Shown here piece after piece: positions 3,505 through 15,682 of a DNA stretch of 64,000 bases; position 1 is the stretch's first letter, and every line of letters begins with the position of its first letter. Below the pieces are notes generated by a model. It saw nothing but the letters and a program-made list of their open reading frames with translations. It made no database searches and was not told where the DNA came from. Source of the stretch: Escherichia phage EC148; sequence record NC_106721.1; one strand, given 5' to 3'. The translations under genes were made by a program, and so were the position numbers.

Positions 3505-3538
3505 TATTATATTTAAATTTCGAAATTTAAATATAATA
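3505..3538. repeat. 34-bp perfect palindrome
   Basis: TATTATATTTAAATTTCGAAATTTAAATATAATA equals its own reverse complement; centre between 3521 and 3522. Confidence 0.9.
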
Positions 3539-3552
3539 GCCCCGAAGGGCTA
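3525..3552 (-). terminator. intrinsic terminator after thyA
   Basis: Minus-strand hairpin UAGCCC-UUCG-GGGCUA followed by an A/U-rich run. Confidence 0.5.
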
Positions 3553-3558
3553 TTTAAA

Positions 3559-4413
3559 TTACACAGTGAATGGATATGCAATAGCAGGATGGTGTTCGTA
3601 ACCACGAACAGTAAAATCATCCTTATTTACCCAGGTCAATACATCCTCCAGAGTTCGGATATTTGGATTGATTTCTAGAGTAGGAGGTGCAAAGGGTTCA
3701 CGATCAAATTGCTTATGCTCCATCAAAACATTATACTGATCCTCATAGATATGAAGATTGATAATCTTCTGGCGTGCAATCCCTGGTTTAAGGCCTGTAA
3801 TCTGTGCCATTAATGCTAGAAGCGTATAGCACTGAACCATGTTAAATACTTGGCCTAACAGGAAGTCATTAGATCTCTGGAAAGAGTTCAGATATAATGT
3901 ATCTCCCAAAATAGAGAACTGATGAGTATGCATACATGGACGTAAGCAACCCTTTGAGAACTCCCCCGGATTCCAGAAGGTTAGAATTTCCCCACGATCA
4001 TCAATGCCCTTTTTCAGATTATGATAAATCTTGGCTAGTTGGTCAAACATAAGACCATCGGAATTAGTCCACTGACGTCCTTGAACACCATAGACTCGTC
4101 CCATATCATCCTCACCTTTACGGTATGGATTGTCTAGCCAAGCTAAGTTTTCATTTGCATTAGCATTCCATGTGTTAACACCAATAGCGCGGAATTGTGC
4201 TGCTGAATCATACCCACGTAGATACCCAATCATTTCCATTATTGCTTGTTTTGCAAACGCCTTACGAGTAGTAATAAGTGGGAATTCACCTGCACCTACG
4301 TTAAAAGTAAAATCTGCATCAATAATGGTGAGGCAACGAACCCCTGTTCTGGGATTCGTTACCCACTGACCTTCTGATAGAATACGTTTTCCAACTTCTA
4401 TATACTGATCCAT
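3559..4413 (-). CDS. thyA: thymidylate synthase
   Basis: 284 aa; RPCMHTHQF active-site region and [13 protein letters not shown] motif match the ThyA family. Confidence 0.9.
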
Positions 4414-9937: not shown

Positions 9938-9966
9938 TTGACATCCACCCTCGAATGAGTTATAAT
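9938..9966 (+). promoter_or_regulatory. consensus sigma70 promoter upstream of nrdD (TTGACA-17-TATAAT)
   Basis: Perfect -35 and -10 hexamers with a 17-nt spacer. Confidence 0.75.
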
Positions 9967-11870: not shown

Positions 11871-11878
11871 GCTAATCA

Positions 11879-11910
11879 GCCGGGTTGCTAGTCGACCTGG
11901 CTTTTATTTT
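11879..11910 (+). terminator. intrinsic terminator after nrdD
   Basis: Stem GCCGGGU/ACCUGGC with 9-nt loop, then TTTTATTTT. Confidence 0.65.
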
Positions 11911-12549: not shown

Positions 12550-12739
12550 GGGTTTAAACTCCGCTTTGGAAAATGCATTAATGCAGCAGTGGGAAACTGG
12601 CTATAAGGATGGTGTTGAATCCTGCGCTACTATGCTAGAAGTTATTGCTAATACCTTAATGGAGAAAGGCAATAAAGAATTAGCTGAGCTATTAGACAGT
12701 ATTGGGCAAAACTTCAGAGAACAGGTGAAAAATGCGTAG
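12518..12739 (+). CDS. hypothetical protein (73 aa)
   Basis: ORF track; GGAGAAA RBS upstream. Confidence 0.45.
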   Translation: MAFSKPILPDKGLNSALENALMQQWETGYKDGVESCATMLEVIANTLMEKGNKELAELLDSIGQNFREQVKNA

Positions 12740-13568
12740 ATTAATTATTATTAGTGGTGCGGGTTTGAGTGTTGAAAGTGGTGTACGAGCCTTCCGTACT
12801 GATACTGCTAGTGGTAAAGCATTGTGGGATGACTATGATCTAGAAGAAGTATGTAATATTCATGCCTTTCGTGGTAATTTTTATCATAAAACCCATATGT
12901 TTTACAACAAGCGTCGTGAAGAGCTAAAAACTGTTGAACCCAATCTTGCGCATTTGCGTATTGGTGAATGGTATAAACAATATCCAGGTCAAGTAGTAAA
13001 CTTGACTACCAACGTTGATGACCTTATTGAGCGTGCTGGCGTTCCACATAGTGACATTCTGCATATTCACGGATATTTAAAAGAGGTTGTTGTAGCTGAT
13101 AGCTACAATAGTAGCAATAAACGGATTATTGATGTAGGATACAATTCTATTGATCCAGATGATTATAAATGGGTTAAACCTAATGTAATCTTCTTTGGAG
13201 AGCATGCTCCTGCATACGCAGAAATGTATAATGTTTTTGACGGTATTACCAGTCAAGATATGATCATTGTGGTTGGTTGCTCTAACCAAGTAATTAACTT
13301 CTACTGGGAATTATTTCCTGTTCTTAATAGGACTGCTGCGAAATTTATGGTAGTTAACTACTATGATAGTGCCCTCGCGGCGGAACCGGGCTATCAAGGT
13401 ATGACTCGTAGTGAGATGTACCAGCTGGAAGAACGTGGTGTCCCTTACTGGAGTAAAGGTGCGGTAGATGCTTTTAGTGATCCTGATTTTATTGCTCGTG
13501 TAGAAGCTCATTTAGAGGGTAGACCTTATGTGTCGAGAAGCAAGGGAAACAGATATGTCCATAGTTAA
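12732..13568 (+). CDS. Sir2-family protein (NAD+-dependent deacylase or NADase fold) without the zinc ribbon
   Basis: Motifs GAGLSVESGVRAFR, PNLAHLRI, TTNVDDL, HIHG, VIFFGE and IIVVGCS match sirtuin Rossmann-fold signatures; no 2xCxxC Zn module present. Confidence 0.75.
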   Translation: MRRLIIISGAGLSVESGVRAFRTDTASGKALWDDYDLEEVCNIHAFRGNFYHKTHMFYNKRREELKTVEPNLAHLRIGEWYKQYPGQVVNLTTNVDDLIERAGVPHSDILHIHGYLKEVVVADSYNSSNKRIIDVGYNSIDPDDYKWVKPNVIFFGEHAPAYAEMYNVFDGITSQDMIIVVGCSNQVINFYWELFPVLNRTAAKFMVVNYYDSALAAEPGYQGMTRSEMYQLEERGVPYWSKGAVDAFSDPDFIARVEAHLEGRPYVSRSKGNRYVHS

Positions 13569-13737
13569 ATCTGTGTATACACACCCCGATGATATATTTG
13601 TATGGGCGGATGGTAGTTGGTGCTATCGCTGTGAGCTGTGGGAGATGGACTATAAATCCGATGACTATGGTGTTATATATGTTGATACGGTTGAGTATGA
13701 TACGTTCTTAGAAAGGAACAAAAATGGAAATAAGTAA
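13555..13737 (+). CDS. hypothetical small protein (60 aa)
   Basis: ATG at 13555 (MSIVKSVY...); overlaps both neighbours; start uncertain. Confidence 0.35.
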   Translation: MSIVKSVYTHPDDIFVWADGSWCYRCELWEMDYKSDDYGVIYVDTVEYDTFLERNKNGNK

Positions 13738-14230
13738 TACTCCAATTATTTTTCTAGATATTGATGGGGTGCTCAATTCGAGCATCTCCCACCATCATGC
13801 ACCTGATGACGAAAAGATTTTCTTTGGAAGTGATTGGGTTTTCAAACCGCTTCTCAAGGCTTTTCAGGACTTTATTCGTCCTTCTCCGATAATGATTGTT
13901 GGAGTATCCTCATGGTTCTCTGTCAGGAATGAGATGGAGAACGTTCAGATTATGACCGGATTAGGTCTTATCGATCGTTTTCTTGGTACAACGGATTTTA
14001 CTGGGGGTGGATTATCTAGGGGTAATTCTGTTCTTCGCTTCGTTGAAAAGCATAAGCTCAAACATTGGTGTGTTCTGGATGACGCTGGTGCTATGATGTA
14101 CCAGTATCCAACGGTTATAGTCAACGGTAGAACTGGAATAAATCTTCAAGATTTAATGGCTGTTAGCTATATGCTAGAATTTAGTCCAGATCTTGAAATG
14201 TGTAAAGCCCTACAACAATTTAAGGTGTAA
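13724..14230 (+). CDS. HAD-superfamily phosphatase-like protein
   Basis: 168 aa; motif I FLDIDGVLN (DxDG), motif II VGVSSW, motif IV VLDDAG. Confidence 0.6.
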   Translation: MEISNTPIIFLDIDGVLNSSISHHHAPDDEKIFFGSDWVFKPLLKAFQDFIRPSPIMIVGVSSWFSVRNEMENVQIMTGLGLIDRFLGTTDFTGGGLSRGNSVLRFVEKHKLKHWCVLDDAGAMMYQYPTVIVNGRTGINLQDLMAVSYMLEFSPDLEMCKALQQFKV

Positions 14231-14232
14231 AT

Positions 14233-14661
14233 ATGTTCAATAATGTATTCTCTAAAGAAGCTAACCCAATTTTGGTTAACTTTTGGCGTACTCTACCGGC
14301 TAGCCTGTATAATGAGGCTATTAACTCCTTGAAAATATGGTGTGAGAATAACGAAATCTCCTTTGCTTTTAAAGATGATATTGATGAGGCCCCCTGTATT
14401 GGTTTAATTGTGCAGGTAGAGGATGGTCTTGAAGAGATTGTGGGCTGGAAAGAGTTAGACGAAATGGGCTTAGTTTTTGCGTTAAATTATAAGCTGTTTA
14501 TGCCTGCTAAGCATCGCCTTGTTGTTAACTATAAAACTAGTGAATCTCCTGGTTTTCAGGTTAATGAACGTTATGGTTGGTCTTACTCACCGGAAGAAGT
14601 AAATGAGGGGATTCAGAAACTTCGACGTTTCGGGTATATGATCCCAGGTTTAACTGCTTAA
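14233..14661 (+). CDS. hypothetical protein (142 aa), paralog of the next gene
   Basis: Shares ...PC[IV]G...W.EL..MGL[IV].ALN..LF.P...PGL[TN] with 14671..15063. Confidence 0.55.
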   Translation: MFNNVFSKEANPILVNFWRTLPASLYNEAINSLKIWCENNEISFAFKDDIDEAPCIGLIVQVEDGLEEIVGWKELDEMGLVFALNYKLFMPAKHRLVVNYKTSESPGFQVNERYGWSYSPEEVNEGIQKLRRFGYMIPGLTA

Positions 14662-14670
14662 GGAGGCAGA

Positions 14671-15063
14671 ATGGAACAAGTATATTGGCGTCAGATTGAT
14701 CCTAGTTTGGTGAAACGTGCGGAGAAGCTGCTACAACGTTGGTTGGGGGTAAGACAAGCCTCCTTCACTTTTCCGGAGCAGCAAATAGATGATCCCTGTG
14801 TTGGTGTTTTCCTATCCGGCTACGCGGGGGAATGGGAGTTGGATTGGAATGAGTTGTCTGCTATGGGTTTAATTGTTGCCCTAAATTTCTCTTTGTTCCA
14901 CCCACGTGGTTTGGCCATATGTCGTGTGTCGGATGATGGTTGTTCGCCCCATCTTTTACAGGTGGAAGATGATATTTGGGAGTACACTCCAGATATTCTC
15001 AAAGAAGCTAAAGAACAATTAAACCGTGTTGGGATTTATGTTCCAGGCTTAAATGATGAATGA
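14671..15063 (+). CDS. hypothetical protein (130 aa), paralog of the previous gene
   Basis: Tandem duplicate of 14233..14661; AGGAGG RBS; followed by an intrinsic terminator. Confidence 0.55.
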   Translation: MEQVYWRQIDPSLVKRAEKLLQRWLGVRQASFTFPEQQIDDPCVGVFLSGYAGEWELDWNELSAMGLIVALNFSLFHPRGLAICRVSDDGCSPHLLQVEDDIWEYTPDILKEAKEQLNRVGIYVPGLNDE

Positions 15064-15086
15064 TTTTTATTAGCTGAACTCTGATT

Positions 15087-15112
15087 ACCGAGTCATTTTG
15101 GCTCGGTTTTAT
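15087..15112 (+). terminator. intrinsic terminator after the accessory cluster
   Basis: Stem ACCGAG/CTCGGT with 9-nt loop, then TTTTA. Confidence 0.55.
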
Positions 15113-15154
15113 CCGTACTCAAGACCAATGATAGCACCATCCGGAAAATTTTAC

Positions 15155-15183
15155 TTGCAGGATGCCCAAAATCTTGATATAAT
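15155..15183 (+). promoter_or_regulatory. T5-type early promoter (TTGCAG-17-TGaTATAAT) heading a ~500-nt untranslated region
   Basis: Extended -10 TG present; conserved ATTTATATTGAATTGAGAGAC downstream; no ORF for ~500 nt. Confidence 0.6.
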
Positions 15184-15682
15184 ATTTATATTGAATTGAG
15201 AGACATTAGTAAAAATTGATTTTGCTAATTTTTCTTGTTTACAATCCGCGATACGGAACAGTTAGGCTGCCCCATTAAGGGTTGTTTTAACTGTTACGTG
15301 TTAGTTTTTAAACAAATAGTTAATAGAATACTTAGCGATCTGCGTCCCATAGGAACCCTGGTAAGGCCTCGAAGCAACCTAGTATGAGGTGGTTGTGAAG
15401 TGAGATGGGAGGAGTGAAAAACTCCGAGACGTGATTCTGTAAGTTATATTGCATCTAGTATGAGCTAGTATATGAAGCATTAGGTGAGCAAATCTGGCTT
15501 AGCGGCCATCCTCAAGGATTTGTGCGATATAGCAAAGCAGCAGCGCAGCGTGAAAGTGGAAGTTGCCACCCCCCTTCAGTATTTGCGATTAATTTGTTGA
15601 GAAATTGACAGTAACAGTTGTTCTATTCTTTCTGAATAGTCCTAAAGAAAACTTATTTTATTTCCAACACAGGAGTATTGTT

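What the first reader, a model, noticed from the sequence alone, without database searches (positions are those of the whole stretch)
14233..15063. Tandem paralogous genes at the end of the accessory cluster
The 142-aa and 130-aa proteins share a clear motif skeleton (PC[IV]G...W.EL..MGL[IV].ALN..LF.P...PGL) but are otherwise diverged, which points to an old tandem duplication kept under selection. Diverged tandem paralogs in phage accessory regions often mark specificity-type functions such as inhibitors with different targets.
Basis: seen in the sequence. Interest (0 to 1): 0.45.

Follow-up and report, generated by a model that had tools for sequence, protein, structure and literature searches.

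The report
Tandem DUF7415 paralogues in phage T5
Two neighbouring early genes of a T5-like phage are real, ancient duplicates of a small acidic protein family of unknown function (Pfam DUF7415); since duplicating, each copy has kept a different half of the ancestral protein, but what they do is still not known.

Summary
ORF A (14233-14661, 142 aa) and ORF B (14671-15063, 130 aa) are paralogues: 32% identity, E = 7e-21, z = 28 against shuffles. They are T5.106 and T5.107, the last two genes of the early Sir2/HAD operon.

Both belong to Pfam DUF7415 and PHROG 2502, families of unknown function. The "exonuclease" and "tail tube" labels in some GenBank records have no support.

New details:
- Each protein probably contains two DUF7415 modules plus a C-terminal helix.
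- About 521 Markadamsvirinae and Sugarlandvirus genomes carry both genes. More distant T5-like phages (Slocum, My1, metagenomic contigs) carry one.
- Divergence was complementary. B keeps the family-wide motif of the second module. A lost it but keeps the ancestral first module and C-helix.
- Both genes are under purifying selection.
- B carries a sharply bounded hypervariable cassette in its first-module hairpin.
- The confident AlphaFold models match no solved structure.
- All family members are acidic. Relatives lie in early, replication or nucleotide-metabolism modules, and some are fused to nucleotide enzymes.

Function remains inferred: most likely non-enzymatic protein-binding modules. 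The "inhibitors with different targets" idea is neither shown nor excluded.

Side finding: a covarying, uncatalogued ~450-nt RNA leader lies downstream.

The parts
12732..13568 (+). Sir2-family gene (T5.102 orthologue). This is the upstream operon member whose linkage to DUF7415 genes is conserved in all T5-like phages examined.
   Evidence: Pfam SIR2 E = 8e-25. Sir2 is followed directly by the DUF7415 gene in Slocum and in L008.
13724..14230 (+). HAD_SAK_2 phosphatase-like gene (T5.105 orthologue), immediately upstream of A. It is mislabelled 'Sir2' in several records.
   Evidence: Pfam PF18143 E = 4e-20. It is absent from Sugarland, Slocum and L008.
14222..14227 (+). Shine-Dalgarno-like AAGGTG for gene A, lying inside the 3' end of the HAD gene.
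   Evidence: Read from the sequence.
14233..14661 (+). Gene A (142 aa; T5.106 orthologue), the derived paralogue.
14275..14418 (+). A, first DUF7415 module (residues 15-62): helix followed by a beta-hairpin.
   Evidence: This half alone scores 69.4 bits against Pfam PF24187, whose gathering score is 27. AF2 elements H23-36, E42-46, E55-62.
14437..14568 (+). A, second DUF7415 module (residues 69-112), degenerate. Family-invariant residues are replaced: H to M90, R to V98, D to G71, N to K73, S to D76, G to K93, D to R113.
   Evidence: Pfam 55 bits. Only 31 bits against a profile built from single-domain members, compared with 75 for B. Column table.
14590..14628 (+). A, C-terminal helix (residues 120-132), followed by the conserved PGLT tail.
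   Evidence: AF2 model. The region is A-like in single-copy relatives.
14662..14666 (+). Strong Shine-Dalgarno GGAGG for gene B, immediately after A's TAA stop codon.
   Evidence: Read from the sequence.
14671..15063 (+). Gene B (130 aa; T5.107 orthologue), the paralogue that keeps the canonical motif.
   Evidence: Called 'Fit', marginally, in the CRISPRi-ART T5 screen.
14677..14832 (+). B, first DUF7415 module (residues 3-54).
   Evidence: Pfam 58.8 bits on this half alone. AF2 elements E2-4, H11-25, E29-33, E45-49.
14749..14856 (+). B hypervariable cassette (residues ~27-62: first-module hairpin plus linker, often strongly acidic).
   Evidence: Column entropy is 1.2-1.7 bits here, against 0.2-0.5 elsewhere. 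Nucleotide identity to JLBYU43 falls from 86-97% to 50% in block 14733-14832.
14839..14964 (+). B, second DUF7415 module (residues 57-98), canonical. It keeps D58, W59, N60, S63, G66, L67, N72, H77, P78, G80, L81, A82, R85, G90 and S92 (and beyond it D100, W103, Y105).
14989..15030 (+). B, C-terminal helix (residues 107-120).
   Evidence: AF2 model.
15087..15112 (+). Intrinsic terminator that closes the operon (ACCGAGUCA-UUU-UGGCUCGGU followed by a U-tract).
   Evidence: Fold energy -14.8 kcal/mol, z = -2.6. Conserved across T5-like phages. Annotated in T5 and Sugarland.

Best explanation
A and B come from one old tandem duplication of a gene that encoded a small acidic protein, probably made of two DUF7415 modules (each strand-helix-hairpin) and a C-terminal helix. 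Shown: the duplication predates the split of Markadamsvirinae and Sugarlandvirus, and more distant T5-like phages still have one gene. Shown: the copies then diverged in a complementary way. B kept the family-wide conserved motif of the second module ([IVL]DWN.LS..GL...IN...LHP.GLA..R[DN]P.TG.S). A lost most of that motif but kept the ancestral first module and the C-terminal helix and tail. Both remain under purifying selection. B's first-module hairpin has become a swappable hypervariable cassette. Inferred: the proteins are non-enzymatic protein-binding modules of the early infection programme. They probably act on a partner linked to DNA replication or nucleotide metabolism, either phage-encoded or from the host. 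They may well work together as a heteromer descended from an ancestral homomer, with B supplying the canonical binding site and the variable surface.
For: - Paralogy.
- Two modules per protein: each half matches PF24187 on its own at 51-69 bits against a gathering score of 27. Five of ten N-halves from distant relatives also match. The AF2 models show the same order of elements twice.
- Age and copy number: the A-type clade has 96% bootstrap support and includes Sugarland A. About 521 genomes carry both genes. Single-copy genes occupy the same syntenic slot in Slocum, My1, L006, L008 and L009.
- Complementary divergence: the residue table; a single-domain profile scores B 75 bits and A 31 bits; single-copy genes are B-like in module 2 and A-like in module 1 and the C-helix.
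- Selection: dN/dS 0.06-0.30.
- Cassette.
- Binding rather than nucleic-acid contact: every member is acidic, pI 4.0-4.95.
- Early, replication or nucleotide setting: the gene lies between nrdD and nrdG in Jiaodavirus, after replication gene A in P2-like phages, and beside a Toprim primase in an integrative element. The module is fused to thymidylate kinase, dATP/dGTP pyrophosphohydrolase and ASCH/DUF3850.
- Translational coupling: A and B have their own ribosome-binding sites inside one operon. In Sugarland the two genes overlap by 4 nt.
- Fitness: T5.107 was called 'Fit' and T5.106 'Not Fit' in the CRISPRi-ART screen (PMC11879866 supplement).
Against: - The internal repeat is not proven. My own profile of 116 single-domain members does not detect the first module (E > 0.2). 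hhalign supports the expected register only weakly (P = 0.0025, probability 12%). The Pfam model may contain both module types in its seed.
- Heteromer formation was not tested; the fused-sequence alignment failed.
- The invariant N, H, R, D and S residues could form a catalytic or ligand-binding site rather than serve as fold determinants.
- The CRISPRi-ART call for T5.107 is marginal (score -2.90, p = 0.02), and that screen also scored the origin-binding helicase 'Not Fit'.
- The tree is neighbour-joining on about 134 columns, and the B-type and single-copy branches are unresolved. Horizontal acquisition of one copy cannot be excluded.
Confidence: 0.5

Rival explanations
1. One reading: A and B are inhibitors (anti-defence or host-takeover proteins) that each block a different host target, as other small acidic phage early proteins do.
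For: The proteins are small and strongly acidic; B variants reach a net charge of -20 to -24, with runs of D and E in the variable loop. B has a hypervariable cassette that is exchanged between near-identical phages: JLBYU43 has A at 98.6% identity but B at 70%. The genes are expressed early. One remote fusion (P0123) weakly matches a PHROG annotated as a RecBCD inhibitor, E = 4e-7.
Against: The pair is nearly universal in its lineage and sits at a fixed syntenic position. A is very conserved, with dN/dS of 0.06-0.13. The family has a near-invariant motif across very different phages and mobile elements, and is fused to nucleotide enzymes. There is no hit in PADLOC or any known anti-defence family. 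T5.107 scored as (marginally) fitness-relevant on a laboratory E. coli host.
Confidence: 0.25
2. The DUF7415 module is a very small enzyme or small-molecule (nucleotide) binding domain whose site is built from the invariant N, H, R, D and S residues. B would be the active protein and A a catalytically dead regulatory paralogue.
For: N (99%), H (93%), S (99%), R (79%) and D (86%) are near-invariant across 138 modules. All are kept in B, and H, R and D are lost in A. The module is fused to thymidylate kinase and dATP/dGTP pyrophosphohydrolase, and lies beside nrdD/nrdG, Sir2 and a HAD phosphatase.
Against: A module of about 55 residues is very small for an enzyme. Most conserved residues lie at helix caps and tight turns in the models (HP.G after the helix, DP.TG.S and DG in hairpin loops), which fits fold determinants. 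No enzyme family matches by sequence or fold.
Confidence: 0.12
3. The proteins are dedicated partners (regulator or immunity-like subunits) of the phage Sir2 enzyme encoded upstream.
For: The Sir2-then-DUF7415 gene order holds in every T5-like phage examined. The two genes overlap in L008 (11 nt) and Slocum (1 nt), which suggests coupled translation.
Against: Single-module relatives in T4-like phages, P2-like phages and integrative elements have no Sir2 neighbour. In the window a small ORF and the HAD gene separate Sir2 from A. Fixed gene order within one phage family can simply be inherited.
Confidence: 0.1
4. The similarity is a chance or annotation artefact, or the genes are decaying remnants.
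For: None beyond the lack of a known function.
Against: E = 7e-21 and z = 28. dN/dS is well below 1. Both models are confident, with pLDDT 87.5 and 92.4. The genes are conserved in about 521 genomes.
Confidence: 0.02

Closest known systems
Pfam DUF7415 (PF24187) / PHROG 2502, two-module proteins of T5-like phages (T5.106, T5.107)
   Same: The window genes are these genes. The window is 100% identical to phage T5_ev212 and about 93-95% identical at protein level to T5.106 and T5.107. Both match the family models far above threshold.
   Different: Nothing differs in sequence. The databases record only 'unknown function'. The probable internal two-module structure, the asymmetric loss of the motif in A and the B cassette do not appear in the literature searched.
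Single-module DUF7415 proteins (PHROG 3954, 33705, 1812), for example the 77-aa protein between nrdD and nrdG of Jiaodavirus phages, and RB43 and Morganella MP1 homologues
   Same: They share the ~55-residue module and the same invariant motif that B's second module keeps. They are also acidic and also lie in early or nucleotide-metabolism gene blocks.
   Different: They have one module only (60-110 aa), with no first module and no PGL tail. They would presumably have to pair with themselves, whereas A and B carry two modules in one chain.
P2-type orf91 (DUF3850/ASCH + DUF7415) and other fusions (thymidylate kinase, dATP/dGTP pyrophosphohydrolase)
   Same: They contain the same module, encoded in early or replication operons (directly after replication gene A in L-413C and P37).
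   Different: There the module is an appendage of an enzyme or RNA-binding-type domain. In T5 it stands alone, doubled within each gene and duplicated as a gene.
Small acidic phage early proteins that bind host proteins (a functional analogy recalled from general knowledge, not tested here)
   Same: Size, strong negative charge and early expression. B also has a variable surface loop.
   Different: No sequence or fold similarity to any such protein was found. A and B are core genes of their lineage, not sporadic ones.

Membership tests
Pfam DUF7415 (PF24187) | Match to the family HMM above the curated gathering score (27 bits). | tested here: met
   A scores 120.8 bits and B 107 bits. Each half alone scores 51.5-69.4 bits.
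Pfam DUF7415 (PF24187) | The family-wide motif of the module (DWN.LS..GL...IN...LHP.GLA..R[DN]P.TG.S) is present. | tested here: met
   Fully present in B's second module and only partly in A's (W72, G79, L80, N85, P91, S105 kept; H, R and D lost).
PHROG 2502 | Full-length match to the PHROG profile. | tested here: met
   A E = 1.3e-62 and B E = 7.3e-61, covering nearly all 134 profile positions.
Phage exonuclease ('ACLAME 70' label in T5_ev212 and other records) | Similarity to a known nuclease family or fold. | tested here: not met
   No nuclease family in Pfam, NCBIfam or PHROGs. No PDB relative by sequence or fold.
Phage exonuclease ('ACLAME 70' label) | Nuclease activity. | not testable with these tools
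   Needs a biochemical assay.
Tail tube protein (label on B orthologues in several records) | Similarity to tail tube families, and location in the structural (late) gene block. | tested here: not met
   No structural-protein family matches. The gene lies in the early Sir2/HAD operon next to the replication helicase. BFVD fold hits are only other DUF7415 proteins.
Known anti-defence proteins / defence-system components | Match to a catalogued family. | tested here: not met
   No PADLOC hit at E <= 1. PADLOC holds defence systems, not anti-defence proteins, so the test is incomplete.
Known anti-defence proteins / defence-system components | Sporadic presence among close relatives (accessory behaviour). 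| tested here: not met
   521 of 524 matching records carry a full-length copy, with about two places per record.
Tandem paralogues from one duplication | Significant pairwise similarity, adjacency on the same strand, and orthologues of each copy forming separate groups in other genomes. | tested here: met
   The A-type clade has 96% bootstrap support. B types are not resolved as one clade.
Internal tandem repeat (two modules per protein) | Significant similarity between the two halves, shown independently of the curated model. | tested here: inconclusive
   Pfam hits both halves and the secondary-structure order repeats. BLAST between halves finds nothing. My single-domain profile misses module 1, and hhalign gives P = 0.0025 at 12% probability.

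The most novel reading that the evidence does not exclude
DUF7415 is a new protein fold that serves as a portable protein-binding module of phage and mobile-element early programmes. In T5-like phages the duplicated pair has become an obligate A:B heteromer. B would supply the ancestral binding site plus an exchangeable specificity cassette, and A the scaffold. The complex would control a replication or nucleotide-metabolism step or a host factor, which would explain why T5.107 affects phage fitness.
Probability: 0.18. Interest if true: 0.6.

Novelty: already known. Interest (0 to 1): 0.35.

Why it matters
The genes are already catalogued: T5.106 and T5.107, both in Pfam DUF7415 and PHROG 2502. 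The finding as stated therefore adds no new entity.

The analysis adds a concrete, testable picture of an uncharacterised family found in hundreds of T5-like, T4-like and P2-like phages and in integrative elements:
- a probable two-module build;
- a confident predicted fold with no solved counterpart;
- a clean case of complementary divergence after duplication;
- a hypervariable cassette confined to one paralogue.

Together with the marginal fitness signal for T5.107 in a published knock-down screen, this makes B (T5.107) and its cassette reasonable targets for a first functional study. It also corrects misleading "exonuclease" and "tail tube" labels that are spreading through GenBank.

Tried and rejected
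- BLAST between the N- and C-halves of A and B found nothing significant.
- hhalign of the halves of alignment A1 paired only the N-terminal helix with the C-terminal helix, at 21% probability.
- NCBIfam and PADLOC gave nothing.
- PDB sequence searches, with single proteins and with a 44-sequence profile, gave nothing.
- The search for related loci with the single-module alignment failed because no stretch was conserved enough.
- A heterodimer test by folding the read-through or linker fusion was not possible.
- Read-through fusion of A and B was considered because they share a frame in the window, separated by TAA plus 9 nt. It was rejected because the Sugarland genes overlap in different frames.
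- A link between HAD_SAK_2 and DUF7415 in T4-like phages was checked in Proteus phage Pm5461; no DUF7415 gene lies nearby.
- PHROG scans of the fusion partners returned mostly unknown function.
- Literature searches for DUF7415, T5.106/T5.107, P2 orf91 and T5 Sir2 found no functional study.

Full report
**What is there**

The window matches Escherichia phage T5_ev212 at 100% identity over 13700-15400, and 524 phage records match that stretch by megablast, chiefly T5-like phages. ORF A (14233-14661, 142 aa) and ORF B (14671-15063, 130 aa) are adjacent on the + strand. In the T5 reference they are T5.106 and T5.107.

They are the last two genes of an early block that runs nrdD, two or three small ORFs, Sir2 (12732-13568), a small ORF, a HAD_SAK_2 phosphatase-like gene (13724-14230), then A and B. 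Each gene has its own ribosome-binding site: AAGGTG for A, and GGAGG directly after A's stop codon for B. A hairpin terminator follows at 15087-15112. It is conserved in relatives and annotated in T5 and Sugarland.

**Check of the observation**

- BLASTP between A and B gives 32% identity over 124 residues, E = 7e-21.
- The local alignment score is 28 standard deviations above shuffled sequences.

**Family**

Both proteins match Pfam DUF7415 (PF24187) and PHROG 2502, both of unknown function. NCBIfam, PADLOC and the PDB give nothing.

The labels "Phage exonuclease (ACLAME 70)" and "tail tube protein" found on these genes in several GenBank records have no support from any library, any fold search or the genomic position. 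I treat them as propagated errors.

**Internal architecture**

The Pfam model is only 53 positions long and hits each protein twice. Scanned separately, all four halves pass the 27-bit gathering score:

| Half | Score (bits) |
|---|---|
| A residues 1-64 | 69.4 |
| A residues 65-142 | 55.0 |
| B residues 1-53 | 58.8 |
| B residues 54-130 | 51.5 |

. N-halves of five out of ten distant relatives also pass.

The AlphaFold models are confident: A has pLDDT 87.5 and pTM 0.82; B has pLDDT 92.4 and pTM 0.86. Both show the same order of elements twice (strand, helix, hairpin), followed by a C-terminal helix.

Independent tests are weak:
- BLAST between the halves finds nothing.
- A profile built from 116 single-module relatives does not find the first module.
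- hhalign aligns the first module in the expected register only at P = 0.0025 and 12% probability.

I therefore rate "two modules per protein, four in the locus" as likely but not proven.

**Wider family**

An exhaustive profile search found 161 representative proteins at E <= 0.001. Only about 20 are two-module proteins. The rest carry a single copy of the second-module type. Some are stand-alone proteins of 60-110 aa. Others are fused to:
- thymidylate kinase;
- dATP/dGTP pyrophosphohydrolase;
- DUF3850/ASCH;
- regions of unknown function.

A few large repeat proteins in the list are false positives.

Genomic settings of the single-module relatives:
- In Jiaodavirus (T4-like) phages the gene lies between nrdD and nrdG.
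- In P2-like phages the module is the C-terminal part of orf91, overlapping the end of replication gene A.
- In an integrative element it lies beside a Toprim primase, AlpA and an integrase.

All members are acidic: pI 4.0-4.95 for two-module proteins, and a median of 4.6 for module cores.

**Age and copy number**

tblastn with A finds 524 phage records, with 1035 places and 521 full-length matches. That is essentially two genes per genome in Markadamsvirinae and in the Klebsiella Sugarlandvirus group.

More distant T5-like phages have a single two-module gene in the same slot, after Sir2 and before the terminator and helicase:
- Serratia phage Slocum;
- Pectobacterium phage My1;
- three metagenomic contigs.

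In a neighbour-joining tree the A-type genes of T5-like and Sugarland phages form one clade with 96% bootstrap support. B-type and single-copy genes form the unresolved remainder. This fits one duplication before those lineages split, with A as the fast-diverging copy. Transfer of one copy cannot be excluded.

**Complementary divergence**

Across 138 modules the near-invariant pattern is [IVL]DWN.LS..GL...IN...LHP.GLA..R[DN]P.TG.S...DG.WEY. B's second module keeps every one of these residues. A has replaced D, N, S, H, G, R and D (for example H to M90 and R to V98). A profile made only from single-module relatives scores B at 75 bits, A at 31 and Sugarland A at 8.

Conversely, single-copy genes are B-like in module 2 (47-81 bits against the B model, 12-33 against the A model). 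Where module 1 and the C-terminal helix can be assigned, they are A-like and never B-like. For example, P0049 scores 42.7 vs -0.7 in module 1 and 35.3 vs 0.3 in the C-helix. Each paralogue has therefore kept a different part of the ancestral protein.

Both genes are constrained: dN/dS is 0.06-0.13 for A and 0.10-0.30 for B.

**B cassette**

B residues ~27-62 (first-module hairpin and linker) are hypervariable, at 1.2-1.7 bits of column entropy against 0.2-0.5 elsewhere. Several distinct, often very acidic versions exist.

The boundaries are sharp. Against JLBYU43 the HAD-A stretch is 86-97% identical, the block 14733-14832 drops to 50%, and the rest of B is 72-85%. Eps7 and STG2 have A proteins 97% identical but B proteins only 70% identical. 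This is recombinational mosaicism, diversifying change, or both, and it is confined to B.

**Experimental context**

In the CRISPRi-ART T5 screen (PMC11879866, supplementary files):
- T5.107 is one of 17 "Fit" genes, described there as being of entirely unknown function.
- Its score is marginal (-2.90, p = 0.02).
- T5.106 is "Not Fit" (-3.28, p = 0.17).
- The helicase T5.108 is also "Not Fit", so sensitivity was low.

No paper in the searched library discusses DUF7415 or these genes further.

**Mechanism**

Shown: an old duplication, complementary divergence, purifying selection, the B cassette, acidity, the early operon position and no known fold.

Inferred (about 0.35-0.5): the proteins are non-enzymatic protein-binding modules of the early programme. 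They would act on a partner tied to replication or nucleotide metabolism, and possibly work as an A:B heteromer that descends from an ancestral homomer.

The rivals are listed with their tests: inhibitors with different host targets (0.25), a tiny enzyme or ligand-binding domain with A as a dead paralogue (0.12), and dedicated partners of the phage Sir2 (0.10). An artefact is excluded.

**Verdict**

However, the genes and their family are already catalogued, and the function remains unknown. Interest is moderate to low (0.35).

**Side finding**

The most interesting thing seen in passing is downstream of B. The 619-bp gap before the helicase gene holds a conserved promoter and a ~450-nt leader with long-range helices supported by compensatory changes:
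- 96.6% of cells are paired, against 32-57% when partners are slid.
- 24 pairs have changes on both sides, against 2-6 in the slid controls.
- 0 of 500 shuffles reach the observed values.
- One helix pairs with the helicase Shine-Dalgarno sequence.
- There is no Rfam match.

Noticed in passing
window 15064-15682 (leader about 15184/15230-15682): The 619-bp gap between B and the origin-binding helicase (start 15683 by the T5_ev212 annotation) contains a conserved promoter (-35 TTGCAG at 15155-15160, extended -10 TGaTATAAT at 15175-15183) and a ~450-nt leader. The leader has strongly conserved anchors around a central part that exists in two very different versions. RNAalifold predicts 72 pairs in 11 helices, including long-range helices and one that pairs UCCU with the AGGA of the helicase Shine-Dalgarno sequence. 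With this structure 96.6% of cells are paired, against 32-57% when partners are slid; 24 pairs change on both sides, against 2-6 slid; and 0 of 500 shuffles reach the observed values. There is no Rfam family at E <= 1. Only about three independent sequence types were available. It looks like an undescribed structured leader or riboregulator of the helicase gene.
   Followed up: partly
window 15333-15632, compared with L005 (T5), L015 (STG2) and L006: The central part of that leader is mosaic between close relatives. The window is only 42-54% identical to T5 here, while the flanks are 85-100%. It is 89-96% identical to the otherwise more distant STG2, and similar to the metagenomic L006.
   Followed up: partly
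window 13724-14230: The gene upstream of A (T5.105 orthologue) is labelled 'Sir2 (NAD-dependent deacetylase)' in RefSeq T5, Eps7, STG2 and other records. It is actually a HAD_SAK_2 phosphatase-like protein (Pfam PF18143, E = 4e-20). The real Sir2 is at 12732-13568. PHROG 18062, named Sir2, seems to carry the mislabel.
   Followed up: partly
L023 (JLBYU43) about 3505-3600 and L016 (phiR2-01), alignment A5 columns 171-266: JLBYU43 and phiR2-01 share an insertion of about 97 nt just downstream of the conserved promoter in the same intergenic region. It is absent from the window, T5, Eps7 and STG2.
   Followed up: no
L006 6390-6650: In the metagenomic T5-like phage with a single DUF7415 gene, an unrelated 86-aa ORF with no Pfam match and no DUF7415 signal occupies the position where B would be.
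   Followed up: partly
window 9938-9966 and 11878-11902: A perfect sigma-70 consensus promoter (TTGACA, 17 nt, TATAAT) lies upstream of nrdD, and a strong terminator-like hairpin follows nrdD. Transcription of the Sir2-HAD-A-B genes therefore probably depends on read-through or on a separate promoter, as annotated in T5.
   Followed up: no
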